Shown here: piece after piece, positions 1 through 20,104 of the stretch
Numbering within the stretch: position 1 is the stretch's first letter
How the letters are laid out: every line of letters starts with the position of its first letter
Source: Minisyncoccota bacterium
GTDB lineage: Bacteria > Patescibacteriota > Minisyncoccia > Minisyncoccales > Minisyncoccaceae
Assembly (NCBI GenBank): GCA_041649895.1
Contig: JBAZMG010000006.1
Span: 1 to 23,655, forward strand
DNA: 23,655 nucleotides
Reading direction: 5' to 3'
Program-made: the position numbers and the translations under genes
The notes under the pieces: generated by a model
Database searches by the model: none
Seen by the model: the letters and a program-made list of their open reading frames with translations, nothing else
What the model was told of the DNA's origin: nothing

Positions 1-78
1 TTAAAAATTGAATAAAAAGTATTGACGAAATAGTTAATTCTTTTCGTAATATACTATTCCCTATTAATTTCGCAACAT

Positions 79-152
79 CGGGATGTCATATAACGGCATT
101 ATGCAGGCTTCGGGAGTCTGTCATCTGGGTTCAATTCCCAGCATCCCGACCA
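79..152 (+). tRNA. tRNA-Pro (anticodon CGG), CCA encoded
   Basis: Manual cloverleaf: acceptor CGGGATG/CATCCCG (7 bp), anticodon stem CAGGC/GTCTG with loop TTCGGGA, T arm CTGGG-TTCAATT-CCCAG, discriminator A followed by CCA; 74 nt. Confidence 0.85.
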
Positions 153-380
153 TTTTCCAATCTCTGACCATCTGGGAATTGAAGGCGGAGGCGCGACGGC
201 GCCGAGCCGGGCCCGAGGAACACACCAGCAGGTGGGTATCCGAGGGCAATTCCCAGCATCCCGACTATTTTCCAGTCTCTGACTTTTTGGGAATTGAAGG
301 CGGAGTCGCGACGGCGACGAGCCGGGCCCGAGGAACACGCCAACAGGTGTGTATCCGAGGGCAATTCCCAGCATCCCGAC
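132..380 (+). repeat. 115-bp tandem repeat (2 full units plus a 19-nt third start); each unit begins with the tRNA-Pro 3' T-arm/acceptor sequence and contains a GC-rich hairpin module
   Basis: CAATTCCCAGCATCCCGAC at 132-150, 247-265 and 362-380 (period exactly 115); units near-identical apart from a few substitutions. Confidence 0.9.
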
Positions 381-413
381 TATTTTACCCCTCAGTCCCC
401 CATTTTAACCATC

Positions 414-484
414 GGATCCGTATTTCAGTGGTAGAATACTACCTTCACACGGTAGAGATATGAGTTCGATTCTCATCGGATCCA
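414..484 (+). tRNA. tRNA-Val (anticodon CAC), no encoded CCA
   Basis: Manual cloverleaf: acceptor GGATCCG/CGGATCC, anticodon stem CTACC/GGTAG with loop TTCACAC, T arm ATGAG-TTCGATT-CTCAT, discriminator A; 71 nt. Confidence 0.8.
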
Positions 485-501
485 CCCCGTACTAGAGTTT
501 T

Positions 502-527
502 AAAAGCCGCGCTTTTGCGCGGTTTTA
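502..527 (+). terminator. Intrinsic-terminator-like hairpin after tRNA-Val
   Basis: AAAA-GCCGCGC-TTTT-GCGCGGT-TTTT: GC stem followed by a T run; nested inside a longer CCCCGTACT...AGTACGGGG helix (485-558 region). Confidence 0.55.
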
Positions 528-622
528 TAAAACACAGTACGGGGTAGCCCTGTAGTGTGTTTTGGCAAAGCCAAAACTCTACTACGGAGCACCACTTAGT
601 AGTCATCCCCCGTCTTTTAACC

Positions 623-650
623 AAAAACCACCCCAAAAGGGCGGTTTTTT
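623..650 (+). terminator. Second terminator-like hairpin (A-tract, stem, T-tract; possibly bidirectional)
   Basis: AAAAACCACCC-CAAAA-GGGCGGT-TTTTT; 7-bp stem with one mismatch, 6 T downstream, 5 A upstream. Confidence 0.45.
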
Positions 651-667
651 GACGTAAAATCACCCAT

Positions 668-683
668 AGTTCCACGTGGAACG
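668..683. promoter_or_regulatory. parS-like palindrome (variant)
   Basis: AGTTCCACGTGGAACG contains the perfect 14-bp palindrome GTTCCACGTGGAAC; 13/16 match to the chromosomal parS consensus TGTTNCACGTGAAACA. Confidence 0.5.
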
Positions 684-862
684 CCCGAAATTGGCTAAAA
701 TTACCCCTCTTCTACGTATTTATGCGACGAATGACTTGTCATTTTGAGGGAAGGCTTAATGGTTTTACATTTGCATTTCCTAAAATAACGTGGTCGTTAA
801 ATAACAGCACTCCCCTAGCCAATGATCAAATTGGGCTAATTACGACCAAAAATCAGTCAAAA

Positions 863-878
863 AGTTTCCCGTGAAACA
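863..878. promoter_or_regulatory. parS-like site
   Basis: AGTTTCCCGTGAAACA, 14/16 to the parS consensus. Confidence 0.6.
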
Positions 879-1029
879 CTATTTTTCCCGTTTTTCTAGA
901 AAATACGTCCTTTACCGTAAAAACATAGGTCATCTATGTTTTTTAGCCAAACCATATGTCAAAACATTAGAGCTTTCCCTATTTTTACCATATTACCTTA
1001 TATTACGATTTTTACCTATTTCGCCTGAA

Positions 1030-1045
1030 TGTTTCCCGTGAAACA
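1030..1045. promoter_or_regulatory. parS-like site
   Basis: TGTTTCCCGTGAAACA, 15/16 to the parS consensus TGTTNCACGTGAAACA. Confidence 0.65.
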
Positions 1046-1180
1046 CTATTTTGAGTGTTTTTCACCAAAAATAAGGTCACCTCATAAATTTAAGGTAAAC
1101 ATAATTAAAAAACATATACTTACCCTAATTTTTAATGGTCATTAATGATCACCAAAAACTAGTCAAATGCCTTAAAACTA

Positions 1181-1196
1181 TGTTTCACGGGAAACA
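1181..1196. promoter_or_regulatory. parS-like site (opposite orientation)
   Basis: TGTTTCACGGGAAACA is the exact reverse complement of the 1030 and 1523 sites. Confidence 0.65.
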
Positions 1197-1291
1197 TTTT
1201 GCCAAATTATGCAAAATTAAGGTCATTTAACATTTTTGACTAAATGTTATTGCAAAAACTTATCACTTCCCCAATTTTACCTAATGACCTT

Positions 1292-1485
1292 ATGTCCGCA
1301 TAAAGTGCTATTTTCTCTAAAAATGGCCGAAATGAGGTCATCTATGTTTTTTAGGGTAAAGATAAGTTGTTTTAATATGTTTTTACCAAATTATAGAGGT
1401 TGTCTATGTCCACATAATACCCCTTAAGTTCAGTCTACCAACCGGCGAATGTCCACATAAATGTCCACATAATTTATGCGGACAT
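1292..1485. promoter_or_regulatory. DnaA-box-like cluster I (5 boxes); candidate oriC left half or iteron set
   Basis: ATGTCC(A/G)CA at 1292, 1406, 1449, 1461 and inverted TGCGGACAT at 1477; extended 12-mer ATGTCCACATAA. Confidence 0.55.
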
Positions 1486-1522
1486 ACAACAAATATGCTT
1501 AGGAATGATAATTTTTTGCTAG

Positions 1523-1538
1523 TGTTTCCCGTGAAACA
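1523..1538. promoter_or_regulatory. parS-like site
   Basis: TGTTTCCCGTGAAACA, identical to the 1030 site. Confidence 0.65.
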
Positions 1539-1539
1539 C

Positions 1540-1750
1540 CCAAAAAATACACTTTAAAATTTTGGGGTGGACTATATGACTATCCCAATAAAATATCATT
1601 TAGAGGCTTATTTTTTATTTCCATACCCAATATTTTTGCTCACAGTGATGTTTTTTCTTTTTTAGCGGATTTGATATTTTATCAAAAATAAAGTATCAAA
1701 TTATACCTCAATATCTTAACAATAATCCTATTAACTCGCTTAATTTTACC
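1540..1750. other. AT-rich spacer between the box clusters; candidate DNA-unwinding region
   Basis: Long T/A runs (e.g. TTATTTTTTATTTCC, GTTTTTTCTTTTTTAG, TGATATTTTATCAAAAATAAAG); no ORF. Confidence 0.35.
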
Positions 1751-1753
1751 AAT

Positions 1754-1947
1754 ATGTCCGCAAAAATAGCTTATTACTTGATTTATGTCCGCATAAATGG
1801 CTATGTGGACATAAAAAAGCTATGTGGACAAATATGTGGACAAGTATCCCGAAATGTGGACAAATCCGGACATAGCTATGTCCACATAATGTCCGGATAT
1901 GTCCGCATAAATGTCCACATAATTTATGTGGACACGAATCCGGACAT
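1754..1947. promoter_or_regulatory. DnaA-box-like cluster II (13 boxes, both orientations)
   Basis: Three TGTGGACAA sites (1823, 1835, 1855) are the perfect complement of the DnaA-box variant TTGTCCACA. Further ATGTCC(A/G)CA or ATGTCCGGA variants and their complements start at 1754, 1785, 1804, 1865, 1878, 1889, 1899, 1911, 1927, 1939. Confidence 0.6.
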
Positions 1948-2047
1948 TCCAATGCCAACTAAAACATAAAAATGTATTATTTTTTAAATACTTAATGGAT
2001 GCGGATCGCTTTACGCTATTCATTAAAAATAATATAATTAAACCGAT

Positions 2048-2464
2048 ATGACCGCCGCTAATTCAAATCACAAGCTTCAGCTTGGGCAAATAGGGGAGAG
2101 TATAGCTCAAAAATACCTAATATCCAAGAAATACAAAATTTTGGATAAAAACTATTTTTTAAAGACCAAAACAAACCGCAAACTGGGAGAAATAGATCTT
2201 ATTGCCAAAAAGGGGAGTGTGTATGTTTTTATTGAAGTAAAAACAATAGCCGGCCGGGAGGGTAGGCGATTTCCACCCGCGGCAAAAATCAATCGTGTAA
2301 AAATAAAAAAGCTGATAAGGGTGGGGGAGAGCTGGCTTAAAAACCATAAACTTTCTTTGACTGTCCGGTGGCAAATTGATATAATTACTATTGAAATTGA
2401 CATTATTCGCAAAAAAGCCCTGGTCCGGCATTATGAAAACGCGATAGAAGATATTAAAAAATAA
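2048..2464 (+). CDS. yraN: YraN/UPF0102 family endonuclease-like protein
   Basis: 138-aa ORF with the family hallmark GEIDLIAKKGSVYVFIEVKT and typical size. Confidence 0.75.
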   Translation: MTAANSNHKLQLGQIGESIAQKYLISKKYKILDKNYFLKTKTNRKLGEIDLIAKKGSVYVFIEVKTIAGREGRRFPPAAKINRVKIKKLIRVGESWLKNHKLSLTVRWQIDIITIEIDIIRKKALVRHYENAIEDIKK

Positions 2465-2469
2465 ACTCT

Positions 2470-3102
2470 ATGCTTTCAAACCAAACTTTGCTGATCGTTT
2501 TAATTTTTTTCGGTTATCTTTTGGGTTCGATTCCGTTCGGATATCTTGTTGGAAAAATCAAAAATGTTGACATTAGGAAAAAAGGGAGTGGCGCCACAGG
2601 CGCGACCAACGTCTCCCGAACAGTGGGCTTTAAATATGCGATCTTGGTTGCGGCATTGGATATCGCTAAAGCGGTTCTACCTATATATATCGGGAGCCGT
2701 TTTTTTAATCCAAGCTGGAACGCAGATCCCGGGTGGCAAATGGCCCTAATCTCTATTGCTCCGGTATTAGGTCACATATTTCCAGTCTGGCTAAAATTCA
2801 AGGGAGGTAAGGGCGTGTCTGTTATCTTCGCTTGCATTATTATGGTAATGGGCTGGCAATACTCCTTAGTTCTTTTTGTCTTATGGCTGGCGCTCTTATT
2901 GCTTATAAAAACAATGAGTCTGACAAATATCTTAATTTTCCCGATTTTACCGTTCTTGTTTTGGTTCAGGACTCACTCTTGGGTGTATGTCTGGCTTGGT
3001 GTTTTTTATGTCCTTTTAATTTGGTGGGCGCATCGCGAGAATATAAAACGCATACGACAGGGGACTGAGCCGAAAACAATTCATAACAAAAATAAAGAAT
3101 AA
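2470..3102 (+). CDS. plsY: Glycerol-3-phosphate acyltransferase PlsY (acyl-phosphate dependent)
   Basis: 210-aa polytopic membrane ORF with GSIPFGYLVGK, GSGATGATNVSR and GHIFPVWLKFKGGKGV motifs. Confidence 0.85.
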   Translation: MLSNQTLLIVLIFFGYLLGSIPFGYLVGKIKNVDIRKKGSGATGATNVSRTVGFKYAILVAALDIAKAVLPIYIGSRFFNPSWNADPGWQMALISIAPVLGHIFPVWLKFKGGKGVSVIFACIIMVMGWQYSLVLFVLWLALLLLIKTMSLTNILIFPILPFLFWFRTHSWVYVWLGVFYVLLIWWAHRENIKRIRQGTEPKTIHNKNKE

Positions 3103-3127
3103 TAAAGCACGAATTAACTAATATTTA

Positions 3128-3300
3128 GGGCTTAATCCTTTTACAAATGATTAAGGGCGGAGCCGACGGCTTGATTGTACTCAATCACGGGCGCAGGGTT
3201 GACGAACCCGAGCCGGGCCTGAGGAAATTTTCAACAGAAAATTATCTGAAGGACGAGCCGGGACTTGAGCAAAACTTCAACAGGAGCTTATATGAAGGAA
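3128..3300 (+). repeat. Cluster of GC-rich structured modules (candidate ncRNA or leader) just upstream of the pilin array
   Basis: Hairpins CTTAATC/GATTAAG (3131-3155), AGCC-GAC-GGCT (3161-3171), TGATTG-TACT-CAATCA (3172-3187), GGGTT-GACG-AACCC (3196-3209), AATTTTC-AACA-GAAAATT (3226-3243). Invariant linkers GGGCGGAG and CGAGCCGGGCCTGAG are shared with the 181-247, 18599-18660 and 20213-20277 copies. Confidence 0.6.
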
Positions 3301-3320
3301 TCCTCAAACATTGAAAAACA

Positions 3321-4205
3321 ATGAAAAAAACTATAAAAAAACAATTTGCGTTTACATTAATAGAACTGCTTATCGTTATCGCAATAATCGGAATACTCTC
3401 TGCGTTGATTATCGTGGGAATGAATAATGCAACCCAAAAAGCGACAATCGCCAAAGCGCAAGTATTTTCCAATTCACTCCGTAATTCTTTGATGTCTGGC
3501 TTGTTTGCCGAGTATAAGCTCGATGGCAACGCCAGCGACACGTGGGGGACACACACAGCCGGAACAATCAGCGGCGCATCATCTTATGCGTCCTGTATAC
3601 AAAATACTTGCTATAGTTTCGATAGCGATGATGATTATATTGAACTCGCGGATGTCGCGGATTTAAGAATGATAACCGGAGGGACTATTTCCGTTTGGAT
3701 TTATCCAAAAAGCTACGGAGAGGGCACTCTTGGAAGAATAATTGATAAGTCGTCTTCGGGCGATTCCGGTTTAGGTGGTTATACTTTTAGGAATAGTTCT
3801 CTTAATAGATTATTGTTCGTAATAAATGACGGCACCAACACACTTACTCAACAAAACGTAATAACTTATAATCAATGGCAACTTGTGACAACTACTTTTA
3901 ATGATTCCGGTAGAAAGATATACGTTAACGGAATTGATAAAACGGCATCCGGAGGTAATGAAACAGATCTACCTCCCGACAGTACGGGAATAGTGGTTAG
4001 AATTGGAAACTCCGCATATGGAACAACCAGAACTTTTGACGGATATATTGATGATGTTCAAATATATAATCAAGTAATTCCGACTTCCCAAATCCAACAA
4101 AATTACTACGCGGGACTCAACAAACTTTTTGCCAACAGGGGAGTGGAAATATCTGAATACCAACAATGCTTAACTGAATTATCAAACAATTACGCTCAAC
4201 AGTAA
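3321..4205 (+). CDS. Type IV pilin-like N-terminus + LamG/concanavalin-A-like domain protein (paralog 1 of 9, most divergent)
   Basis: MKKTIKKQFA|FTLIELLIVIAIIGILSALI prepilin-type motif with Glu+5; LamG-type hallmarks (YSFDSDDDYIEL, TISVWIYP, FDGYIDDVQIYN); shared C-terminal tail QNYYAGLNKLFANRGVEISEYQQ. Confidence 0.85.
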   Translation: MKKTIKKQFAFTLIELLIVIAIIGILSALIIVGMNNATQKATIAKAQVFSNSLRNSLMSGLFAEYKLDGNASDTWGTHTAGTISGASSYASCIQNTCYSFDSDDDYIELADVADLRMITGGTISVWIYPKSYGEGTLGRIIDKSSSGDSGLGGYTFRNSSLNRLLFVINDGTNTLTQQNVITYNQWQLVTTTFNDSGRKIYVNGIDKTASGGNETDLPPDSTGIVVRIGNSAYGTTRTFDGYIDDVQIYNQVIPTSQIQQNYYAGLNKLFANRGVEISEYQQCLTELSNNYAQQ

Positions 4206-4232
4206 TGTTTGGGTATTCGATACCCAAACATT
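4204..4232. repeat. Intergenic palindrome type 1 (13-bp arms) upstream of an A-type pilin gene
   Basis: AATGTTTGGGTAT-TCG-ATACCCAAACATT, starting inside the stop codon of paralog 1. Confidence 0.8.
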
Positions 4233-4237
4233 GAAAA

Positions 4238-5176
4238 ATGATGAATAGAAATATAAAAACAAATTTGGCATTTACATTGATAGAACTACTTGTGGTTATC
4301 GCAATCATCGGGATTTTATCTGCATTAATTATCATTGGGATGAGCTCGACAACACAGAAAGCTAGTGTTGCCAAGGCGCAGGTGTTTGCCAATTCTTTGC
4401 GCAATTCATTGATGGCGGATATGGTTTCTGAGTGGAAGCTTGATGGAAACACCAATGATACTTGGGCGGCCTCATTTGCAAACAACGGAACCTGGTGGGG
4501 AACGACCGCGCCGAATACCGTCGCAACCTATGGAACTGCGTCCGAATGCGTTTCCGGACAATGTATGGATTTTGATGGCGTGGATGATATGGTGGACTTT
4601 GGGAGCAACGCTTCTTTATCTATGGGAACAAAAGATCACACAGTCTCTTTATGGGTTAAGTTTGATAATGCGACCGCAACAGACATAGACACATTGGTTA
4701 TCTGTGGAGCAATGACGGGAACAGGGAAAGATGGGTATTGGATTACAAGACTTACCGATAGATTATACTTTTATTTTACTGATGGAGAAGGAGCAAATAC
4801 AAGAATTGCCGGCTATTTATCCGCAGCCGGAACATTAATTGCTAATAATTGGTATCAAATAACCGTAACTATGGATAGGGACGGAAATGTAACGGGATAT
4901 ATAAACGGAACATCGCAAATAAGTTGGGCTATTTCTCCTCAGCCTGGAGACGTACAAAATTCCATAAGCTTTCGAATGGGAGCTTTTACTACATCCCTGT
5001 ATCGTCTCGCCGGTAAAATGGATGAAGTGAGAATTTTTCACGCTATTACGACAATATCTCAAATAGAGCAAAACTACTTCGCGGGACTGAACAAACTTTT
5101 TGCCAACAGGGGAGTGGAAACATCAGAATACCAACAACGCTTAACTGAATTATCAAACAATTACGCACGGGATTAA
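4238..5176 (+). CDS. Pilin-like + LamG-domain protein (paralog 2, subtype A); real start may be the second ATG at 4241
   Basis: M(M)NRNIKTNLA|FTLIELLVVIAIIGILSALI; EWKLDGNTNDTW...CMDFDGVDDMVDFG...TVSLWVKFDNA...GKMDEVRIFHAI; preceded by palindrome 4204-4232. Confidence 0.85.
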   Translation: MMNRNIKTNLAFTLIELLVVIAIIGILSALIIIGMSSTTQKASVAKAQVFANSLRNSLMADMVSEWKLDGNTNDTWAASFANNGTWWGTTAPNTVATYGTASECVSGQCMDFDGVDDMVDFGSNASLSMGTKDHTVSLWVKFDNATATDIDTLVICGAMTGTGKDGYWITRLTDRLYFYFTDGEGANTRIAGYLSAAGTLIANNWYQITVTMDRDGNVTGYINGTSQISWAISPQPGDVQNSISFRMGAFTTSLYRLAGKMDEVRIFHAITTISQIEQNYFAGLNKLFANRGVETSEYQQRLTELSNNYARD

Positions 5177-5206
5177 AATGTTTGGGGGTTAAACCCCCAA
5201 ACATTT
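5176..5206. repeat. Intergenic palindrome type 2 (13-bp arms)
   Basis: AAATGTTTGGGGG-TTAAA-CCCCCAAACATTT. Confidence 0.8.
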
Positions 5207-5213
5207 AAAAACG

Positions 5214-6104
5214 ATGAATAGAAATATAAAAACAAAATTGGCATTTACATTGATTGAGCTACTTGTGGTAATTGCAATCATCGGGATTTTATCCGCTTTG
5301 ATCATTATTGGGATGAGCTCGACAACGCAGAAAGCAAACATTGCAAAATCACAAATATTTGCCAATTCTTTGCGCAATTCATTGATGGGGGACATGGTTT
5401 CGGAGTGGAAGCTTGACGAAGGAGCTGGCGATACAATATCTGATACGTGGGGCAGCAATAATGGAACAAAAGCTGGGGCAACATGGGAAGCAATAACAAC
5501 CAACTGCGTCTACGGCAAGTGCTTATCTTTTGATGGTGATGCTGATAATATAAATTTCGGAAATAAAACTGATTTTAATTTGGCTAGCACAAGCCACACT
5601 ATTTCGGTTTGGTTTAAAACAAGTACGACAACTACTGACCATATAATTAGTCGCTTTAACGGCGGAAGTCCCGGCGCTGGATATGTTATTTTTGTGTCCT
5701 CTGGAAAGGTTTGTTTTTCGGAAAGAGCAGACGGGGGAGACTTTCTTGCCCGCGATTCAGCGCTAACCTACAATGATAATTCTTGGCATTTTGTAACTTA
5801 CACGGTTGATATTTCTTTAAAAACAGGGAGGTTTTGCATTGATGGAACTTTTTTGCCCCTGGATACTTATACTGGAAACTTAATAAATTATAATAATAAT
5901 TTATATATCGGTGGACCACAGGTAGGATACTATTTTACTGGCCTAATAGACGATATACGCATATATGATGCCGCAATGCCAGCTTTCCAAATCAACGAAC
6001 AATATTACACCGGATTGAATAAACTTTTGGCAAACAGGGGAGTGGAAACATCTGAATACGAGCAAAGAATCGTAGAATTAAATTATAATTATGCAGAAAA
6101 TTAA
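5214..6104 (+). CDS. Pilin-like + LamG-domain protein (paralog 3, A-type leader, divergent body)
   Basis: MNRNIKTKLA|FTLIELLVVIAIIGILSALI; CLSFDGDADNINFG...TISVWFK...FTGLIDDIRIYDAAM; preceded by palindrome 5176-5206. Confidence 0.85.
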   Translation: MNRNIKTKLAFTLIELLVVIAIIGILSALIIIGMSSTTQKANIAKSQIFANSLRNSLMGDMVSEWKLDEGAGDTISDTWGSNNGTKAGATWEAITTNCVYGKCLSFDGDADNINFGNKTDFNLASTSHTISVWFKTSTTTTDHIISRFNGGSPGAGYVIFVSSGKVCFSERADGGDFLARDSALTYNDNSWHFVTYTVDISLKTGRFCIDGTFLPLDTYTGNLINYNNNLYIGGPQVGYYFTGLIDDIRIYDAAMPAFQINEQYYTGLNKLLANRGVETSEYEQRIVELNYNYAEN

Positions 6105-7047
6105 AATTAACGCATTTACATTGATAGAACTACTTGTGGTTATTGCAATCATCGGAATTTTATCTGCTTTAATTGTTATCGGGATGAGCTCGACAACGCA
6201 AAAAGCCAGTGTTGCAAAAGCGCAAGTATTTGCGAATTCTCTGCGCAATTCGTTGCTGGCGGATATGGTTTCGGAGTGGAAATTGGATGACGGGACTGGA
6301 AACAGCACCACAAAAGATTCCTGGGCTTCGGCTTTTGCCAATACGGGGACCTTGGGAACAGCGGCAGTAGGGGATGCAAGCGAGCCCACATGGCTAAGTA
6401 CCGGTTGTGTTTCCGGAAACTGTCTTTCGTTTGACGGCGCTGATGATTATGTTGATTTCGGAAATAATGCGTCCCTATCAATGGGAACTAAAGATCATAC
6501 TGTATCACTCTGGGTTAAGTTTGATAATGCAACAGCGCCCGCTCCTAATAATGCGGAAACGCTGGCTCGTTGTGGGGTCCAAGCTGCCGGAGTTGGGCGG
6601 GATGGATATTGGATTTATAGGACTGGGAGTAGTCTATTTTTTTATTTTTCTGATGGTTCGGCGGATAGCATAGGCGGCTCATTATCAGGGTCCGGGACAC
6701 TAATAGCTAACACTTGGTATAACATAGTTGTTGCACTCGATAGAGATATTTCTGCCTATATGTATATAAATGGAGTTAAACAAACAGGCTACTCATTAAA
6801 TATCGTACCACAAAATGGAGACGTACAAAATACATCCTTGTTAATGATTGGGGCAACTTCAGCTGGCTATGGTCGGCTTGACGGTCAAATGGATGAGGTA
6901 AGAATCTTTCACGCTATTACGACAATATCTCAAATAGAGCAGAACTACTTTGCCGGACTGAACAAACTTTTGGCAAACAGGGGAGTGGAAACGTCTGAAT
7001 ATGAGCAAAGAGTCGCGAATTTAACTTCAAACTATGCAAAGAATTAA
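6091..7047 (+). CDS. Pilin-like + LamG-domain protein (paralog 4, subtype B)
   Basis: MQKIKINA|FTLIELLVVIAIIGILSALI; EWKLDDGTGNSTTKDSWAS...CLSFDGADDYVDFG; ATG lies inside the previous gene's NYAEN-stop codons (14-nt overlap). Confidence 0.85.
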   Translation: MQKIKINAFTLIELLVVIAIIGILSALIVIGMSSTTQKASVAKAQVFANSLRNSLLADMVSEWKLDDGTGNSTTKDSWASAFANTGTLGTAAVGDASEPTWLSTGCVSGNCLSFDGADDYVDFGNNASLSMGTKDHTVSLWVKFDNATAPAPNNAETLARCGVQAAGVGRDGYWIYRTGSSLFFYFSDGSADSIGGSLSGSGTLIANTWYNIVVALDRDISAYMYINGVKQTGYSLNIVPQNGDVQNTSLLMIGATSAGYGRLDGQMDEVRIFHAITTISQIEQNYFAGLNKLLANRGVETSEYEQRVANLTSNYAKN

Positions 7048-7978
7048 AATTAACGCATTTACTTTGATAGAACTGTTGGTTGTAATAGCGATCATCGGTA
7101 TTTTATCTGCGTTGATTGTTGTGGGTATGAGCTCGGCGACGCAGAAAGCCAGTGTTGCAAAAGCGCAAGTATTTGCTAATTCTTTGCGGAATTCCTTAAT
7201 GGCGGATATGGTTTCCGAATGGAAATTAGATGACGGAACCGGAAACAGCACAACGAAAGATTCCTGGGCTTCGACTTTTACTAATACCGGGACACTGGGG
7301 ACTGCGACGGTAGGGGATGCAAGCGAGCCCACATGGCTAAGTACTGGTTGCGTTTCTGGAAACTGTCTATCTTTCGATGGAGCTGACGACTATGTTAATT
7401 TTGGCAATAACGCTTCATTGAGTATGGGAACAAAAGATCACACAATATCTTTATGGGTTGAATTTATTAATCCAACGGCACTGCAAGATGAAACAATGAT
7501 TCGCACGGGAGCTGGCGGTAGTGGAGCTGGCTATTGGATTTATAGATTTACCGGAACAAATAAATTAAGGTTTCTTTTTCATGACGGAGTTGGTTCGCAG
7601 GCATCCGGATATTTGTCGGCGGATGGCACATTAGTTGCTGGTATTTGGTATAATATAGCTATAATAATGGATAGGGATTCCAATGCCCAAGCTTATATAA
7701 ACGGGCAAATACAAACCAGTTACCCAATAGTTATATCTGGAAACCAAGGAACTATACAAAATGTTACAAATCTAATGGTTGGAGCGCAAGACGCGTCAAC
7801 ACGACGGCTTACCGGCAAAATGGATGAAGTAAAAATATTTCACGCAATACCGTCAATCTCCCAAATTCAACAAAACTATTACGCCGGACTGAACAAACTT
7901 TTGGCAAAAAGAGGGGTGGAAACATCAGAATATGAGCAAAGAGTCGCGGATTTAATTTCAAACTACGCAAAAGAATAA
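7034..7978 (+). CDS. Pilin-like + LamG-domain protein (paralog 5, subtype B)
   Basis: MQRIKINA|FTLIELLVVIAIIGILSALI; same architecture; 14-nt overlap with paralog 4. Confidence 0.85.
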   Translation: MQRIKINAFTLIELLVVIAIIGILSALIVVGMSSATQKASVAKAQVFANSLRNSLMADMVSEWKLDDGTGNSTTKDSWASTFTNTGTLGTATVGDASEPTWLSTGCVSGNCLSFDGADDYVNFGNNASLSMGTKDHTISLWVEFINPTALQDETMIRTGAGGSGAGYWIYRFTGTNKLRFLFHDGVGSQASGYLSADGTLVAGIWYNIAIIMDRDSNAQAYINGQIQTSYPIVISGNQGTIQNVTNLMVGAQDASTRRLTGKMDEVKIFHAIPSISQIQQNYYAGLNKLLAKRGVETSEYEQRVADLISNYAKE

Positions 7979-8005
7979 TGTTCGGGTATTCGATACCCAG
8001 ACATT
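7977..8005. repeat. Intergenic palindrome type 1 (one mismatch, one G-U)
   Basis: AATGTTCGGGTAT-TCG-ATACCCAGACATT. Confidence 0.75.
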
Positions 8006-8010
8006 GAAAA

Positions 8011-8955
8011 ATGATGAATAGAAATATAAAAACAAATTTGGCATTTACGTTGATTGAGCTATTGGTCGTAATAGCGATTATTGGTATTCTTTCGGCTTTG
8101 ATCGTTATTGGGATGAGCTCGACAACTCAAAAAGCTAGTGTTGCCAAGGGCCAAGTATTTGCTAATTCTTTACGCAATTCGTTAATGTCAGATATGGTCT
8201 CGGAGTGGAAATTGGATGGAAACACTAACGACACTTGGGCGGCCTCGTACGCGAACAACGGAACTTGGTCAGGTCCAACCGCGCCAAACACAGTCGCTAC
8301 TTATGGACCGGCAGCTGAATGCGTTTCCGGACAATGTATGGATTTTGATGGAGTGGACGATTTAGTTGATTTTGGAAATAACGCTTCGCTATCAATGGGA
8401 ACAAAAGATCACACAGTCTCTTTATGGATTAAGTTTGACAATGCAACAGCCCCACAACACGAAGTTTTGATTATTAGTGGCGGCAACATTGTTGCTCCTG
8501 GATATGCTGGTTATGATATTTTAAGATACACCGGAATGAGTCGACTATATGTTGAATTTTCCGATGGCTCGGCAAATAATGTCGGTGCCTATTTATCCGC
8601 ATCGGGAACATTAGTATCTAATATTTGGTATAATATAGTAGTAATTTTTGACAGAGACGGAGTTGCCAAGGCATATATTAACGGATTGTCACAGGCGGGA
8701 ACATTAAATATATCGGTTCAACCGGGCAATGTACAAAATATTTACAACTTAAGGTTGGGGGCGTGGACACCGTCCCAATTTCGTCTTGCTGGTAAAATGG
8801 ATGAAGTGAGAATATTTCACGCGATAACAACACTTTCCCAAATTCAGCAAAACTACTACGCGGGACTGAACAAGCTTTTTGCAAACAGGGGAGTGGAAAC
8901 ATCCGAATATCAACAAAGGATCGTAGAATTAAATTCGAATTATGCAAAGAATTAA
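8011..8955 (+). CDS. Pilin-like + LamG-domain protein (paralog 6, subtype A); start may be 8014
   Basis: M(M)NRNIKTNLA|FTLIELLVVIAIIGILSALI; N-terminal ~150 aa near-identical to paralog 2; preceded by palindrome 7977-8005. Confidence 0.85.
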   Translation: MMNRNIKTNLAFTLIELLVVIAIIGILSALIVIGMSSTTQKASVAKGQVFANSLRNSLMSDMVSEWKLDGNTNDTWAASYANNGTWSGPTAPNTVATYGPAAECVSGQCMDFDGVDDLVDFGNNASLSMGTKDHTVSLWIKFDNATAPQHEVLIISGGNIVAPGYAGYDILRYTGMSRLYVEFSDGSANNVGAYLSASGTLVSNIWYNIVVIFDRDGVAKAYINGLSQAGTLNISVQPGNVQNIYNLRLGAWTPSQFRLAGKMDEVRIFHAITTLSQIQQNYYAGLNKLFANRGVETSEYQQRIVELNSNYAKN

Positions 8956-9895
8956 AATCAACGCATTCACATTAATAGAACTACTTGTGGTTATTGCAAT
9001 CATCGGGATTTTGTCTGCATTAATTATCATTGGGATGAGCTCGACAACACAGAAAGCTAGTGTTGCCAAGGCGCAAGTGTTCGCTAATTCTCTACGTAAT
9101 TCATTGATGTCGGATATGGTTTCGGAGTGGAAGCTTGATGATGGGACAGGAAACAGCACAACGAAAGATTCCTGGGCTTCGACTTTTACAAATACGGGGA
9201 CCTTGGGAACCGCAGCAGTGGGGGATGCAAGCGAGCCCACATGGCTAAGTACTGGTTGCGTTTCCGGAAACTGTCTTTCTTTTGACGGCACCGACGATTA
9301 TGTTGATTTTGGGAGCAATGCGTCTTTATCTATGGGGACTAAAGACCATACTGCGTCATTCTGGGTTAAATTTGATAATGCGGTAGCAATAGAAAATAAT
9401 ACACTGATTAAATGCGGGGCCTTCGGCGCCTCTCTTGGATCAGACGGATACTGGCTTGTTAGATTAAACGGTACAAACAAACTATATTGTTATTTCTCCG
9501 ACGGAGAAACAACAACATTGCTTGGTAATTATTTATCCGCGGATGGTTCTTTGGTTGCCGATACTTGGTACAATATTGTTGTAATGTTCGACAGGAGCGG
9601 AGTGGCTCAAGCATACATAAATGGCGTAATACAATCAGGAACACTAAACATATCATCACAAACAGGAGACGTGCAAAATAGTAGAAGTTTTACTATTGGA
9701 GCCTGGTCAGCAACACTACATCGATCCGCTGGCAAAATGGACGAAGTACGAATATTCCACGCGATTACGACACTTTCTCAAATTCAACAAAACTACTTCG
9801 CAGGACTGAACAAACTTTTGGCTAATGGGGAAGTGGAAACATCAGAATACCAACAACGCTTAACTGAATTATCAAACAATTACGCACGGGATTAA
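8942..9895 (+). CDS. Pilin-like + LamG-domain protein (paralog 7, subtype B N-terminus with the paralog-2 type C-terminus)
   Basis: MQRIKINA|FTLIELL...; the last 64 nt of the CDS plus the downstream hairpin are 100% identical to 5113-5210. Confidence 0.85.
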   Translation: MQRIKINAFTLIELLVVIAIIGILSALIIIGMSSTTQKASVAKAQVFANSLRNSLMSDMVSEWKLDDGTGNSTTKDSWASTFTNTGTLGTAAVGDASEPTWLSTGCVSGNCLSFDGTDDYVDFGSNASLSMGTKDHTASFWVKFDNAVAIENNTLIKCGAFGASLGSDGYWLVRLNGTNKLYCYFSDGETTTLLGNYLSADGSLVADTWYNIVVMFDRSGVAQAYINGVIQSGTLNISSQTGDVQNSRSFTIGAWSATLHRSAGKMDEVRIFHAITTLSQIQQNYFAGLNKLLANGEVETSEYQQRLTELSNNYARD

Positions 9896-9925
9896 AATGT
9901 TTGGGGGTTAAACCCCCAAACATTT
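9895..9925. repeat. Intergenic palindrome type 2 (identical to 5176-5206)
   Basis: AAATGTTTGGGGG-TTAAA-CCCCCAAACATTT. Confidence 0.8.
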
Positions 9926-9931
9926 AAAACA

Positions 9932-10870
9932 ATGAATAGAAATATAAAAACAAAATTGGCATTTACATTGATAGAATTATTGGTCGTGATTGCAATCATC
10001 GGGATACTTTCGGCTTTGATCATTATTGGGATGAGTTCGACGACACAGAAAGCTAGTGTTGCCAAATCGCAGGTGTTTGCCAATTCATTGCGCAATTCTT
10101 TGATGGCGGATATGGTTTCAGAATGGAAATTGGACGGGAATACTAACGATACTTGGGCGTCTTCAAATGCGAACAACGGAACGTGGTCGGGACCAACCGC
10201 GCCGAATGCCGTCGCTACTTACGGGACGGCAGCCGAATGCGTCTCCGGACAATGTATGGATTTTGACGGTGTGGATGATGTAGTTGATTTTGGAAATAAC
10301 GCTTCGTTATCAATGGGAACAAAAGATCACACAGTCTCTATTTGGGTTAAATTCGATAACGCATCACCCCCAACAGAAGAAGAAACATTAATTTTTTGCG
10401 GCGGAACAGTGGCCGCGACAGAAGGCTATTGGATCAGGAGACAAATTGGAGGAACAGGAATTTATTTTTGTTTTAACGATGGCTCGGCAACAAGGGCTAA
10501 CGGTGCTTTATCAGCGAACGGAACTTTAATTAATAATATTTGGTATAATATAGTAATAACAATGGACAGAGATTCTAATGCCCAAGCATATATAAATGGA
10601 CAAAAACAAACTGGTTATGTTGTTAGTCTCTCCTCTTGGCAAACCGACATACAGAATACTTATAATTTCCAAATTGGTGGATTTGGAGCTGTTTATACAA
10701 TGGCGGGAAAAATTGATGAAGTAAGAATATTCAATGCGATAACAACACTTTCTCAAATTCAACAAAATTACTTTGCAGGACTGAACAAACTTTTTACCAA
10801 CAAGGGAGTGGAACCGTCTGAATACCAAAAAGAGGTCACGAATTTAATTTCAAACCATGCAAAGAATTAA
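9932..10870 (+). CDS. Pilin-like + LamG-domain protein (paralog 8, subtype A)
   Basis: MNRNIKTKLA|FTLIELLVVIAIIGILSALI; preceded by palindrome 9895-9925. Confidence 0.85.
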   Translation: MNRNIKTKLAFTLIELLVVIAIIGILSALIIIGMSSTTQKASVAKSQVFANSLRNSLMADMVSEWKLDGNTNDTWASSNANNGTWSGPTAPNAVATYGTAAECVSGQCMDFDGVDDVVDFGNNASLSMGTKDHTVSIWVKFDNASPPTEEETLIFCGGTVAATEGYWIRRQIGGTGIYFCFNDGSATRANGALSANGTLINNIWYNIVITMDRDSNAQAYINGQKQTGYVVSLSSWQTDIQNTYNFQIGGFGAVYTMAGKIDEVRIFNAITTLSQIQQNYFAGLNKLFTNKGVEPSEYQKEVTNLISNHAKN

Positions 10871-18498: not shown

Positions 18499-18734
18499 GC
18501 AAACATTTATTTAGACTGTATTATTAGGACGCTTCTCGCAAGAAAATTTTCACCAGAAAATTTGCTGAGCGCTTAATTATTTATTTTAAAATAATTAAGG
18601 GCGGAGGGCCGACGGGCCCGAGCCTGTCCTGAGCGCAAATTCAACTGAATTTGACGCGAAGGAGTGCAGACGCCGGCGACGGCCGGCGGATGACACGTCG
18701 AACGAATAATGCAGTCTAAAAGCTAAATGTTTGC
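18499..18734 (+). ncRNA. 236-nt GC-rich structured element closed by a ~27-bp inverted repeat (candidate ncRNA or MITE-like element) just upstream of tRNA-Arg
   Basis: Arms GCAAACATTTATTTAGACTGTATTATT (18499-18525) and AATAATGCAGTCTAAAAGCTAAATGTTTGC (18705-18734). Internal hairpins at 18544-18563, 18572-18599, 18606-18619 (GGGCC-GACG-GGCCC), 18636-18653, 18672-18687 (GCCGGC-GACG-GCCGGC). Confidence 0.55.
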
Positions 18735-18816: not shown

Positions 18817-18841
18817 CAGCAAATTTTGCTGACGCAAAATA

Positions 18842-18943
18842 TTGCAGTAATTAGTAGTTTGTAGTTTGTAATTAGGGTAAGGAAATTATTAGGATAACAA
18901 AATTTGCTCCCAAAGTACCAACTACTCACACAAAGTACAAAAG
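18842..18943 (+). repeat. tRNA-linked ~100-nt repeat, copy 1 (long imperfect hairpin)
   Basis: TTGCAGTAATTAGTAGTTTGTAGTTTGTAATTAGGGTAAGGAAATTATTAGGATA...TTTGCTCCCAAAGTACCAACTACTCACACAAAGTACAAAAG; the TTTGTAG heptad arm pairs with the CAAAGTAC arm. Confidence 0.8.
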
Positions 18944-18945
18944 CG

Positions 18946-19066
18946 TTGCAGTAATTAGTAGTTTGTAGTTTGTAATTAGGGTAAGGAAATTATTAGGATA
19001 TTTTAAAGTAAAATTTATTCCCAATCCGCCAGCTGGCGGAACAAATTACTCACACAAAGTACAAAA
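18946..19066 (+). repeat. tRNA-linked repeat, copy 2 (carries an extra CCGCCAGCTGGCGG hairpin)
   Basis: First 54 nt identical to copy 1; 3' arm ACAAATTACTCACACAAAGTACAAAAA. Confidence 0.8.
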
Positions 19067-19072
19067 ATTTTT

Positions 19073-20076: not shown

Positions 20077-20104
20077 CAGCAAATTTTGCCCCCGAGGCAA
20101 AATC

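What the first reader, a model, noticed from the sequence alone, without database searches (positions are those of the whole stretch)
132..380. 115-bp tandem repeat after tRNA-Pro: each unit re-creates the tRNA 3' end and buries the T-loop sequence in a helix closing a GC-rich insert
Units start at 132, 247 and 362, a period of exactly 115. Each begins with the 19-nt T-arm/acceptor 3' strand of tRNA-Pro (CAATTCCCAGCATCCCGAC). Within each unit CTGGGAATTG (172-181; TTGGGAATTG at 287-296) is the reverse complement of the next CAATTCCCAG. The T-loop/T-stem sequence therefore becomes one strand of a 9-10 bp helix enclosing a ~65-nt GC-rich insert. The two units differ by compensatory changes in a stem (GGCGC-GACG-GCGCC at 190-203 vs GTCGC-GACG-GCGAC at 305-318), while the linkers GAAGGCGGAG and CGAGCCGGGCCCGAGGAA are unchanged. 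The sequence 5' of the helix (TCTCTGACCATCTGGG) resembles the tRNA's own anticodon-stem/variable region (AGTCTGTCATCTGGG). This suggests each unit derives from a tRNA 3' half with an insertion in the T loop. Possible explanations: scars or miniature forms of a tRNA-3'-end-targeting integrative element; a tRNA-like (T-arm mimic) ncRNA co-transcribed with the tRNAs; or processing 'punctuation' recognised by tRNA-maturation enzymes.
Basis: seen in the sequence. Interest (0 to 1): 0.75.

Follow-up and report, generated by a model that had tools for sequence, protein, structure and literature searches.

The report
tRNA-linked structured repeat element of Patescibacteria
The 115-bp repeat after tRNA-Pro is two copies of a protein-less, strongly structured element found after many tRNA genes in Patescibacteria; it matches no described RNA family, and how it spreads or what it does is still unknown.

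Summary
The tRNA-Pro 3' part (19 nt) occurs at 132, 247 and 362.

The GC-rich insert is not a one-off. It is a conserved 64-nt two-hairpin module present 5 times in the window, all on the + strand, and 168 times in 666 kb of related contigs. Every genome-collection contig judged a true copy is from a Patescibacteria MAG.

In the commonest arrangement a complete tRNA gene of any of 17 specificities is followed by:
- a spacer;
- an arm antisense to tRNA positions 54-65;
- the module;
- a copy of the tRNA from C56 to its 3' end.

Arm plus copy close a three-way junction. Helices covary heavily. G·U outnumbers A·C 68 to 8, so the fold belongs to the tRNA-sense strand. There is no Rfam, phage or plasmid match and no associated gene.

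Best reading (about 0.5): a non-autonomous insertion element aimed at the tRNA T-loop, co-transcribed with tRNAs. The main rival (about 0.3) is a host ncRNA or processing module. Neither the mechanism of spread nor whether the folded strand is RNA or single-stranded DNA is shown.

The parts
79..152 (+). tRNA-Pro(CGG). Its positions 56-74 (window 132-150) are the first copy (S1) of the repeated 3' part.
   Evidence: ARAGORN; Rfam tRNA, 51.1 bits
153..171 (+). Unit 1 spacer. It is short here; the median across the family, measured to the module start and including the antisense arm, is 65 nt, often with a strong hairpin.
172..183 (+). Unit 1 antisense arm P1a, CTGGGAATTGAA. It is the reverse complement of tRNA positions 54-65; the last AA is the unpaired J1/2.
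184..247 (+). Unit 1 module. P2 is 184-208 (GGC / GGA-GA internal loop / 5 bp / GACG loop). J2/3 is 209-210. P3 is 211-247 (GA·GA internal loop, bulged A238, AGCA loop).
   Evidence: MFE fold; model R1 hit 170-261, 89 bits; covariation
247..265 (+). Second copy of the tRNA-Pro 3' part (S2). It is the P1b strand of unit 1 and the start of unit 2. It is followed by CTA where the tRNA gene has CCA.
287..298 (+). Unit 2 antisense arm P1a (TTGGGAATTGAA).
299..362 (+). Unit 2 module (P2 299-323, P3 326-362).
   Evidence: model R1 hit 285-376, 89.6 bits; fold
362..380 (+). Third copy of the tRNA-Pro 3' part (S3), followed by the 33-nt spacer to tRNA-Val.
414..486 (+). tRNA-Val(CAC), the downstream neighbour. 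No terminator-like site was found between tRNA-Pro and tRNA-Val.
3153..3300 (+). Composite copy between plsY and the first pilin-like gene. It holds a partial 5' module piece, the hairpin TTGATTGTACTCAATCA, a full module (3190-3253) and an extra P3-like hairpin.
   Evidence: 75.6 bits; same architecture in L174
18572..18664 (+). Copy D, about 80 nt upstream of tRNA-Arg. A local hairpin (18572-18599) takes the place of P1 and is followed by the module (18600-18664).
   Evidence: 75.1 bits
20206..20298 (+). Copy E after tRNA-Lys(CTT) (20004-20077). P1a is GGATTCG (20206-20212). The module is 20215-20278. The tRNA-Lys 3' part CGAATCCCTCACGGGGCA plus CCA is re-created at 20278-20298.
   Evidence: (88.3 bits)

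Best explanation
The repeat is two tandem copies of a small, protein-less insertion element that is widespread in Patescibacteria and is aimed at the T-loop of tRNA genes. Each copy consists of four pieces:
- a spacer;
- an arm antisense to tRNA positions 54-65, sometimes extending imperfectly towards the 3' end;
- a conserved 64-nt module of two hairpins (P2 and P3), each with G·A-type internal loops;
- a direct copy of the tRNA from C56 to its 3' end.

On the tRNA-sense strand the antisense arm pairs with the copied 3' part. With P2 and P3 this closes a three-way junction whose 3' edge abuts C56.

SHOWN:
- the anatomy;
- the family and its restriction to tRNA-rich Patescibacteria DNA;
- covariation of all helices;
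- the strand specificity of the fold;
- the exact tRNA 3' repeat with a fixed left border at C56;
- tandem arrays and copy-number differences between orthologous loci;
- replacement of the module between nearly identical loci;
- the absence of a linked protein gene.

INFERRED:
- Units arise by site-specific insertion or recombination at T-loop position 55/56.
- The recognised form is a folded single strand in which arm plus 3' part imitate the duplex tRNA-gene target. Known parallels are the folded attP(+) of CTXphi and integron attC.
- The enzyme acts in trans and is unknown.
- Arrays then grow by repeated insertion or unequal crossing-over.

In this window the units are very probably co-transcribed with tRNA-Pro and tRNA-Val. 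The fold would then also sequester the surplus tRNA 3' half. Whether the active folded strand is DNA or RNA is not decided.
For: - Repeat and fold are verified.
- The module occurs 5 times in the window, all on the + strand. It gives 168 model hits in 666 kb of related contigs.
- In the genome collection, the contigs judged true copies are five Patescibacteria MAG contigs (Saccharibacteria, Zambryskiibacteriota, unclassified): four by perfect pairing of the P2 stem on low-GC DNA (L001, L015, L055, L063) and the fifth (L065) by a 63-bit model hit.
- 105 of 155 copies lie within 250 nt downstream of a same-strand tRNA. 100 of 187 tRNAs in these loci carry one, across 17 amino-acid specificities.
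- The tRNA 3' part is repeated exactly in 24 of 34 distinct cases, always starting at C56.
- Tandem arrays with periods 115, 123, 144, 147 and 151 occur at other tRNAs.
- Covariation: 93.6% of cells are paired against 71.6% in shuffles. 20 of 24 pairs show double changes. The score is 0.573 against 0.167, and slid controls reach at most 0.117. The outer P2 helix also covaries: GGC/GCC, GCC/GGC, CGC/GCG.
- P1a covaries with the T-loop variant: CGAAT, CGAGT, CGATT, CGACT, CAATT, CAAAT.
- G·T 68 versus A·C 8.
- Turnover: the window has 2 units where L201 has 1 at the same Pro-Val locus. At the syntenic Arg/Lys-rpsO-pnp locus of L159 there are 3 and 2 units, against 0 and 1 in the window.
- L170 and L181 have flanks about 99% identical, but the module differs at about 17 of 64 nt, including all four inner P2 pairs.
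- In L148 the same arm plus module sits next to two different tRNA 3' parts. One of these is an interrupted tRNA-Ser(UGA).
- About a quarter of the model hits are degenerate, truncated or carry insertions.
Against: - No recombinase, transposase or reverse transcriptase is in the window. None recurs near 150+ copies.
- No empty-versus-filled site pair at strain level was found.
- Copies within one genome are as divergent as copies between genomes (0.735 versus 0.719 identity) yet keep perfect structure. That is what per-locus selection on a functional RNA would give, and it argues against recent bursts.
- The permuted form (type 2) has no second tRNA 3' copy. It sits in tight tRNA-tRNA spacers where it must be transcribed.
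- The right border of the repeat varies, from 8 nt inside the tRNA part to 27 nt beyond it. Simple integrase or fixed target-duplication models do not explain this.
- A 115-150-bp element is too small to circularise easily as duplex DNA.
Confidence: 0.5

Rival explanations
1. It is a host-serving structured RNA. The three-way junction would be a co-transcribed processing, stability or 'punctuation' module of tRNA precursors. Alternatively it is a tRNA-minihelix-like small RNA released by RNase P or RNase Z, in which the copied 3' part mimics an acceptor/T-arm end.
For: - The fold is specific to the sense strand.
- Covariation is heavy among old, divergent copies inside one genome.
- A circularly permuted form lies in tRNA-tRNA spacers of about 95 nt, for example L157, where transcription is unavoidable.
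- Unpaired nucleotides are invariant or nearly so at positions the search pattern did not fix: A59, C61, A62 and G41 of the alignment.
- Copies without a nearby tRNA are co-oriented with flanking genes 53 to 14.
- In long forms P1 extends over the acceptor 3' strand and CCA (L147, L188, L190, L218).
Against: - The copied 3' part is identical to the tRNA even where it is not paired. In window copy E, P1 is only 7 bp, yet all 18 nt plus CCA match. Helix maintenance does not require that.
- 14 of 42 long spacers have a terminator-like hairpin between the tRNA and the module.
- Presence and copy number vary between syntenic loci. Many copies are truncated or disrupted.
- No expression data are available.
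Confidence: 0.3
2. The repeats are ordinary attL/attR scars of conventional integrase-carrying prophages or islands that used the tRNA genes. The module would be incidental DNA next to attP.
For: - Direct repeats of tRNA 3' parts are the classic signature of such elements.
- Larger cargo segments bounded by further tRNA-Gln and tRNA-Ala 3' copies exist in L150, L231, L213 and L171.
Against: - Units are 96-135 bp between repeats and carry no genes. No integrase is in the window or recurs in the loci.
- Duplex arm-type sites would not show hairpin covariation or a 68:8 G·T/A·C asymmetry.
- The antisense arm has no role in a duplex attP.
- In L150 and L144 the cargo sits upstream of an intact unit next to an 8-nt tRNA-end remnant. 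It therefore used a different crossover point.
- There are no matches in phage, plasmid or IMG/VR collections.
Confidence: 0.07
3. It is a purely local accident: a one-off tandem duplication of a chance GC-rich sequence, or an assembly artefact.
For: Only 2.2 copies are present in the window, and they are 92% identical.
Against: The same module occurs at three other places in the window and at more than 160 places in independent assemblies, with covarying helices.
Confidence: 0.01

Closest known systems
Folded single-strand recombination sites: CTXphi attP(+) (Xer-dependent IMEX) and integron attC sites/CALINs
   Same: - An inverted copy of the target site is separated by a structured stretch of about 65-90 nt, so that one strand folds into a forked hairpin that imitates the duplex target.
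- The fold is strand-specific.
- The small unit carries no recombinase.
- Units form tandem arrays at one chromosomal site (established knowledge; papers listed: PMC4246890, PMC3442271).
   Different: - The target is a tRNA T-loop/3' end, not dif or attI.
- There are no R/L box consensus sequences.
- The 'terminal structure' (P2/P3) is the most conserved part here, not the most variable.
- Units are far smaller than a phage genome and shorter than typical ORF-carrying integron cassettes, and mostly lack ORFs.
- No Xer or IntI link was tested or found.
Arrays of partial tRNAs left by tRNA-targeting integrative elements (e.g. tycheposons of Prochlorococcus, CIME-type integrase-less derivatives)
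   Same: A complete tRNA gene is followed by repeated copies of its 3' part. Serial or tandem occupancy occurs, and non-autonomous derivatives exist (bioRxiv 10.1101/2020.12.28.424599, listed; otherwise own knowledge).
   Different: - Those elements are kilobases long, carry or depend on tyrosine recombinases, and have duplex att sites.
- Here the units are 115-155 bp, contain a covarying three-way junction and an antisense arm, and no recombinase is nearby.
Small palindromic repeat families of bacteria (REP/BIME-REPIN, Rickettsia palindromic elements, Neisseria Correia elements, ERIC)
   Same: They are high-copy, non-coding, hairpin-forming and intergenic. They are co-transcribed with neighbours, and some are RNase III targets. 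Rickettsia palindromic elements can invade structured genes in reduced genomes (own knowledge).
   Different: - None of them duplicates about 20 nt of a tRNA 3' end.
- None carries an arm complementary to its target.
- None forms a conserved three-way junction.
- REPINs depend on a RAYT gene; this was not tested here.
- Copies here are as divergent within a genome as between genomes.
23S rRNA intervening sequences and short ORF-less rRNA insertions of CPR bacteria
   Same: A structured insertion replaces the loop of a conserved RNA helix and extends its stem. Such insertions are common in reduced or symbiotic genomes. Many short uncharacterised ones are reported in CPR rRNA genes (PMC11270868).
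   Different: - That paper does not mention tRNA at all (0 occurrences).
- Here an intact tRNA copy is normally kept upstream, and the insertion sits in a duplicated 3' fragment.
- No sequence relation to rRNA insertions was tested.
Circularly permuted small ribozymes (hammerhead types I-III, twister P1/P3/P5)
   Same: It is a small multi-helix junction with conserved unpaired nucleotides. It occurs in permuted connectivities and next to other RNA genes.
   Different: No Rfam ribozyme model matches even at E <= 10. No cleavage-site signature was recognised, and activity is untested.

Membership tests
tRNA (Rfam RF00005) | Cloverleaf detected by a covariance model or ARAGORN | tested here: not met
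   Only 79-152 and 414-486 are called as tRNAs in window 1-700. Nothing is called in 153-413.
Any described RNA family (Rfam 15, 4227 models, incl. hammerhead, twister, twister-sister, pistol, hatchet, HDV-like, group I/II introns, Y RNA-like, tmRNA) | Match at or near the gathering score | tested here: not met
   The gathering scan of the whole window finds only 4 tRNAs. Scans at E <= 10 on window 1-700 and E <= 1 on five loci covering the tRNA-copy, permuted and four-helix forms give nothing over the module.
tRNA-targeting integrase elements (attL/attR) | Direct repeat of the tRNA 3' part flanking the inserted DNA | tested here: met
   The 19-nt repeat occurs 3 times in the window. It is exact in 24 of 34 distinct family cases.
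tRNA-targeting integrase elements (attL/attR) | Integrase (tyrosine or serine recombinase) encoded in or next to the element | tested here: not met
   Pfam scan of ten window proteins finds none. No recombinase-like family appears among the 25 most recurrent ORF clusters from the related loci, judged from representative N-terminal sequences and blastp to window proteins only, not a Pfam scan.
Integron attC / CALIN | R''/L''...L'/R' boxes with RYYYAAC...GTTRRRY cores | tested here: not met
   P1 arms read GG(G)ATTCGAA...CGAATCC(C) or tRNA-specific variants. No GTTRRRY core is visible. This was judged by eye; no attC model was run.
Integron attC / CALIN | Structure-conserved, strand-specific folded site repeated in arrays | tested here: met
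   Covariation; G·T 68 versus A·C 8; arrays.
CTXphi-type IMEX | Two inverted copies of the target site forming a forked hairpin in one strand | tested here: met
   P1a is the reverse complement of tRNA positions 54-65 and lies 64 nt from P1b.
CTXphi-type IMEX | Target is dif and the reaction uses XerC/XerD | tested here: not met
   The target is the tRNA T-loop/3' end. Xer involvement cannot be tested with these tools.
MITE | Terminal inverted repeats belonging to the element, a short fixed target-site duplication, and a related autonomous IS | tested here: not met
   One 'repeat arm' is the target itself. The duplication is 8 to about 48 nt, with a fixed left and a variable right border. No IS was found.
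REP/REPIN-RAYT | A single-copy RAYT (IS200/IS605-like TnpA) gene flanked by the repeats | not tested
   Only 23.7 kb plus fragments of other genomes are held. No complete genome was available.
TnpB/IscB omega-RNA or IS110 bridge RNA | Scaffold RNA encoded at the end of an element that carries tnpB, iscB or a DEDD recombinase | tested here: not met
   No such gene adjoins any of the five window copies, and none appears among the recurrent ORF clusters near the related loci, though those were not scanned against Pfam. The order 'scaffold, then ~20-nt flank-derived 3' segment' is only an analogy.
Type III toxin-antitoxin (ToxI-like repeats) | Tandem RNA repeats directly upstream of an endoribonuclease toxin gene | tested here: not met
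   The repeats are followed by tRNA-Val and then 1.5 kb of non-coding DNA.

The most novel reading that the evidence does not exclude
The antisense arm is a programmable guide. A ~90-nt three-way-junction RNA (or single-stranded DNA) recognises the T-loop/3' half of a tRNA gene by base pairing. This places its own 3' end against C56, and the element becomes joined there. The joining could be self-catalysed or done by a general host enzyme. That would make it a gene-less, guide-directed mobile element. Alternatively, the module is a new class of small self-processing ribozyme that uses a tRNA-like P1. Three observations are compatible with this but do not demonstrate it: the zero-nucleotide junction between P3 and C56, the permuted form, and the same arm plus module next to two different tRNA 3' parts in L148.
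Probability: 0.07. Interest if true: 0.95.

Novelty: new variant of a known kind. Interest (0 to 1): 0.72.

Why it matters
If this reading holds, roughly every second tRNA gene in the Patescibacteria contigs retrieved here carries a small structured passenger that current annotation does not report. The contigs were selected for containing the module, so that fraction is an upper estimate.

Four consequences follow.
- It gives a concrete, covariation-supported motif (model R1, more than 160 examples) to add to RNA and repeat libraries.
- It explains partial-tRNA repeats in these genomes without invoking prophages.
- It flags a pitfall for tRNA and genomic-island predictors that read tRNA 3' repeats as att sites.
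- It offers a tractable system, since co-cultures of Saccharibacteria with their hosts exist. One can ask how a gene-less element keeps an arm matched to its target, and whether folded single strands are used for recombination or processing in bacteria that constantly import DNA.

If instead it is a host RNA, it would be a lineage-specific component of tRNA precursor handling in organisms whose RNA processing is almost unstudied.

Tried and rejected
1. **Rfam.** Gathering and permissive scans of the window and five loci gave nothing but tRNAs.
2. **First genome-collection pattern.** It was too GC-rich.
3. **Retro-copy test.** The question was whether the distal copy carries CCA when the gene does not. 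It does at the tRNA-Ser loci and window tRNA-Lys, but not at L151, L159, L160, L163, L168, L171, L181, L215 and L219. There is no general signature of copying from mature tRNA.
4. **Distal copy templated by the antisense arm.** Rejected. The distal copy equals the tRNA exactly, while arm pairing is imperfect.
5. **Intron reading.** The interrupted tRNA-Ser(UGA) in L148 lacks T54-T55, so clean splicing would not restore a normal T-loop.
6. **Cargo genes as part of the element.** In L150 and L144 the cargo lies upstream of an intact unit beside an 8-nt tRNA-end remnant, so it is a separate island.
7. **Recurrent neighbouring proteins.** Only housekeeping and pilin families recur.
8. **Classical K-turn in P2.** The would-be 1b position varies (G/C/U/A), so it does not fit.
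9. **Tertiary pair between alignment columns 19 and 40.** 53 of 92 sequences are Watson-Crick compatible, but 32 are G/G. This reflects subfamily structure, not pairing.
10. **Intragenomic homogenisation.** Absent: 0.735 versus 0.719 identity.
11. **Lagging-strand-template argument.** Dropped because a candidate oriC lies at 1.4-1.9 kb, which puts copies A and B and copies C to E on opposite replichores.
12. **Strict terminator criterion.** It undercounted at first (6 of 53). The relaxed count is 14 of 42, and 29 of 42 have a perfect hairpin of at least 8 bp.
13. **Literature.** Six searches and one paper (PMC11270868) gave no description of the element.
Full report
**1. Observation**

The window starts with tRNA-Pro(CGG) at 79-152 and tRNA-Val(CAC) at 414-486. 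Between them Tandem Repeats Finder reports a 115-bp period, 2.2 copies, 92% matches, score 440. The 19-mer CAATTCCCAGCATCCCGAC, which is tRNA-Pro positions 56-74, occurs exactly at 132, 247 and 362 and nowhere else; 0 are expected. Its reverse complement (C/T)TGGGAATTG lies at 172 and 287.

The two units differ at 9 positions, including a compensatory G-C to U-A change in the first hairpin. As RNA each unit folds into a 9-bp closing helix and two hairpins, at -47.4 and -47.9 kcal/mol with z = -3.8 and -5.3. The opposite strand folds less convincingly, with z = -1.6 and -2.1.

One refinement is needed. The 5' arm CTGGGAATTGAA is the exact reverse complement of TTCAATTCCCAG (positions 54-65). 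It is an antisense copy, not a copy of the T-arm 5' half.

**2. The insert is a recurrent module**

The pattern GGCGNAG-N8-16-CGAGCC matches five times in the window, all on the + strand, against 0.02 expected:
- 184 and 299: the two units;
- 3190: between plsY and the first pilin-like gene;
- 18600: about 80 nt upstream of tRNA-Arg;
- 20215: 137 nt after tRNA-Lys.

The last copy is preceded by GGATTCG. It is followed by CGAATCCCTCACGGGGCA-CCA, which is the tRNA-Lys 3' part re-created.

The common anatomy has four parts:
- J1/2: AA(A/T).
- P2: a 3-bp outer helix, a G-N-A/G-A internal loop, a 5-bp stem and a GACG loop.
- J2/3: NG.
- P3: a long hairpin with a GA·GA (or G·U/C-G) step, a bulged A in 'UAU' and an A-N-C-A loop.

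P3 ends directly against C56 of the tRNA copy.

**3. The family**

Nearly all of its hits lay in high-GC genomes, and all but a few of them had an unpaired stem. The contigs judged true copies are five Patescibacteria MAG contigs, from Saccharibacteria, Zambryskiibacteriota and unclassified lineages: four by a fully paired P2 stem on low-GC DNA, the fifth (L065) by a 63-bit model hit.

A 21-base spaced pattern found 92 metagenome stretches and none in IMG/VR. Ninety-two distinct instances were aligned (A1).

On P2 plus P3, covariation is strong:

| Measure | Observed | Control |
|---|---|---|
| Cells forming standard pairs | 93.6% | 71.6% (shuffled) |
| Pairs with changes on both sides | 20 of 24 | – |
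| Covariation score | 0.573 | 0.167 (0 of 500 shuffles reach it) |
| Partners slid by 1-3 columns | – | at most 0.117 |

There is a caveat. The search pattern fixed GGCGNAG, GACG, CGAGCC, AA and TAT, and my script kept only instances with the four inner P2 pairs formed. P2 pairing in A1 is therefore partly by construction. P3 is free of that bias: 16 pairs, all with double changes, 90.4% paired.

A covariance model (R1) finds exactly the five window copies at 75-90 bits, plus two P3-apex fragments. It gives 168 hits in 665,836 bases of related loci. Forty-four of 150 aligned hits do not fit the search pattern. These show that the outer P2 helix covaries too (GGC/GCC, GCC/GGC, CGC/GCG, GAC/GTC) while the G-N-A/G-A loop stays. 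The P2 apex can change or carry insertions.

G·T pairs outnumber A·C 68 to 8, or 26 to 7 without the two special positions. The fold therefore belongs to the tRNA-sense strand.

**4. Contexts**

*tRNA-copy form (the majority, including window copies A, B and E).* A complete same-strand tRNA gene ends, in most cases, 56-94 nt (median 65) before the module; the window units (31 and 137 nt) and a few others (36-44 nt) fall outside this range. Its 3' part reappears about 140-155 nt after its first copy. Seventeen amino-acid specificities are involved. In all, 105 of 155 copies have a tRNA within 250 nt upstream, and 100 of 187 tRNAs in these (ascertained) loci carry a module.

The arm P1a is GG(G)ATTCGAA for the common T-loop and changes with it:

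| T-loop 3' part | Arm P1a |
|---|---|
| CGAGT | GGACTCG |
| CGATT | GGAATCG |
| CGACT | GGAGTCG |
| CAAAT | GGATTTG |
| CAATT | GGGAATTG |

A variant, GGA(C/T)GAG, puts tandem G·A next to the junction. The T-stem part is paired at 4.06 of 5 positions with its own partner, against 3.20 with foreign partners. Duplex energy is -16.7 versus -11.5 kcal/mol. In some loci the arm extends imperfectly to the acceptor 3' strand and CCA.

The window's 115-bp unit is a short version, with a 31-nt spacer. Elsewhere 29 of 42 long spacers hold a perfect hairpin of at least 8 bp, and 14 of 42 look like terminators. Arrays with periods 115, 123, 144, 147 and 151 occur at tRNA-Leu, Ala, Val, Leu and Lys.

*Permuted form ('type 2': L015, L063, L146, L157, L173, L176, L178).* The tRNA's last nucleotides and trailer form a closed hairpin with the following strand. 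P2 and P3 follow, and there is no second tRNA copy. This is a circular permutation of the same junction, with z = -6.4 to -7.4. It can fill an entire tRNA-tRNA spacer of about 95 nt, as in L157.

*Four-helix form ('type 3').* P1 is ATGTTTGGGGG/CTCCCAAACAT and an extra hairpin precedes P2, giving a four-way junction. The composite at window 3153-3300 has the same architecture as L174.

**5. The repeated tRNA part**

In 34 distinct cases the distal copy equals the tRNA exactly in 24. Mean identity is 0.944, against 0.498 for the next 25 nt.

The left border is always C56, abutting the module. The right border varies. Most often it lies at the tRNA end. It lies inside the tRNA part (8-17 nt) in about six cases. 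It extends up to 27 nt into the flank in L159, L190, L187, L209, and weakly in the window.

Identity holds even where the arm does not pair with it. Window copy E has a 7-bp P1, yet all 18 nt plus CCA match.

**6. Dynamics**

- The orthologous Pro-Val locus L201 has one unit with a hairpin spacer, where the window has two.
- L159 is syntenic with window 18.7-20.8 kb (PNPase 77% identical). It has three partly decayed units after tRNA-Arg(TCG), where the window has none. It has two after tRNA-Lys(CTT), where the window has one.
- L170 and L181 are about 99% identical over some 210 nt of tRNA-Ser, spacer and distal flank. Yet they differ at about 17 of 64 module positions, including all four inner P2 pairs. 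The module has been replaced as a block.
- In L148 an identical arm plus module plus 30 upstream nucleotides sits next to two different tRNA 3' parts. One is a tRNA-Ser(UGA) whose positions 1-53 run straight into the arm and module with no intact 3' part upstream.
- Against recent bursts, copies within a locus are no more alike than copies between loci (0.735 versus 0.719).

**7. What is not there**

Ten representative window proteins were scanned against Pfam (the remaining ORFs named here are paralogs, as judged from their translations): UPF0102/YraN, three PlsY, nine pilin-LamG paralogs, a CarS-like protein, FakA/DegV proteins, a frameshifted 23S_rRNA_IVP gene, a T4SS pilin, S15 and PNPase. 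There is no recombinase, transposase or reverse transcriptase.

An all-against-all comparison of 704 ORFs from the loci shows only housekeeping and pilin families recurring. There is no match in 50,697 phage records. The only match in 72,556 plasmid records is a chance 37-nt hit. Rfam gives nothing. Six literature searches and a paper on CPR rRNA insertions do not describe the element.

**8. Interpretation**

These points are shown:
- a lineage-wide, strand-specific, covarying three-way junction;
- physical linkage to tRNA 3' ends;
- one strand of its closing helix is a precise copy of the tRNA from C56;
- variable copy number, block replacement and decayed copies;
- no linked gene.

The exact, sharply bounded tRNA repeat, the arrays and the block replacement are what insertion or recombination at a fixed point (55/56) predicts. 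Helix maintenance alone does not predict them. The covariation and the 68:8 wobble asymmetry show that a single strand folds. A duplex att site would not show them.

The simplest model joining both facts is a non-autonomous element whose recognised form is a folded single strand. In it the antisense arm plus 3' part imitate the duplex target. CTXphi attP(+) and integron attC work this way. The enzyme would act in trans and is unknown. That step is inferred, as is the choice between DNA and RNA for the folded strand.

In the window no terminator-like site separates tRNA-Pro, the units and tRNA-Val. The units are therefore probably transcribed with them, and the fold would keep the extra 3' half from interfering. 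I give this reading about 0.5.

**9. Rivals**

A host ncRNA or processing module gets about 0.3. Four points favour it: per-locus conservation of structure among divergent copies, the permuted form in tight tRNA spacers, invariant unpaired bases not imposed by the search (A59, C61, A62, G41), and co-orientation with neighbours of 53 to 14. Its weak points are the unexplained exact tRNA identity, the terminator-like hairpins upstream of many modules, the turnover and the decay. The two readings are not exclusive, because an inserted element may have been put to use.

Conventional integrase scars get about 0.07 and a local accident about 0.01; both are largely refuted. A guide-directed, self-inserting or self-processing RNA gets about 0.07. 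It is the most novel reading not excluded.

**10. Verdict**

The finding is real, reproducible across assemblies and, as far as these tools show, undescribed. Its kind has relatives: small structured repeats and folded recombination sites. The combination is new: an arm matched to the T-loop, a conserved two-hairpin module, a tRNA 3' copy and a permuted form. Interest 0.72.

Noticed in passing
window 1407-1934 (within the non-coding stretch 490-2047): Ten DnaA-box-like TGTCCACA motifs cluster here on both strands, against 0.34 expected. The stretch is AT-rich, and the cumulative GC skew has its minimum at about 2 kb. This is a candidate chromosomal replication origin.
   Followed up: partly
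window 3321-11816: Nine tandem paralogs of 294-319 aa lie head to tail. The first one, scanned against Pfam, has a type IV pilin N-terminal methylation motif and a Laminin_G_3 (concanavalin-like) domain; the other eight share the N-terminal motif by eye. Pilin-like proteins are also the most frequent protein neighbours of module copies in other loci.
   Followed up: partly
window 19073-19427: A 23S_rRNA_IVP (four-helix-bundle, Avd-like) gene is split by a frameshift near 19170. It scores 98 bits when the two frames are joined. It is either a pseudogene or a sequencing error.
   Followed up: partly
window 18818-19070 and 20078-20205: A second repeat family follows tRNA-Arg (twice) and tRNA-Lys: CAGCAAATTTTGC..GCAAAAT.TTGCAGTA, GTAGTTTGTA runs, GGGTAAGGAAATTAT.AGGATA, CACACAAAGTACAAA. 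It forms the leader of the four-helix-bundle gene at tRNA-Arg. At tRNA-Lys it occurs without the gene, as the spacer of module copy E.
   Followed up: no
window 19026-19041; L159 2793-2808; L201 1558-1573 and 2127-2142; L154, L200, L207, L214: A 16-nt perfect palindrome, TCCGCCAGCTGGCGGA, recurs. In L159 it replaces the apex of P2. In L201 it interrupts the copied tRNA-Pro 3' part. It looks like a separate tiny hairpin insertion.
   Followed up: partly
window 20296-20425: GCGAAGTGG-like motifs are repeated about four times at 20376-20425, with an inverted CCACTTCGC at 20296. This lies between module copy E and rpsO and could form a long-range helix in the rpsO-pnp leader.
   Followed up: no
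window ~863-880, ~1030-1047, ~1178-1197: The palindromic motif GTTTCCCGTGAAACA / TGTTTCACGGGAAACA is repeated three times in the AT-rich region left of the DnaA-box cluster.
   Followed up: no
L148 3340-3510 (minus strand): A tRNA-Ser(UGA) gene has positions 1-53 running directly into the antisense arm, module and 3' part, with no intact T-loop. ARAGORN does not call it. It is unknown whether that genome has another tRNA-Ser(UGA).
   Followed up: partly
L150 (minus strand, oriented 100-5200), L231, L213, L171: Segments of 0.8-3.6 kb carrying ORFs, including an HNH-like one and a pilin-like one, are bounded by further copies of tRNA-Gln or tRNA-Ala 3' parts. These look like ordinary small islands using the same tRNA genes, with a different crossover point near the extreme 3' end.
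   Followed up: partly
L154, downstream of the distal tRNA-Asn copy (oriented ~6420-6450): The truncated distal tRNA copy runs straight into a near-consensus promoter: TTGACT, 17 nt, TATAAT.
   Followed up: no
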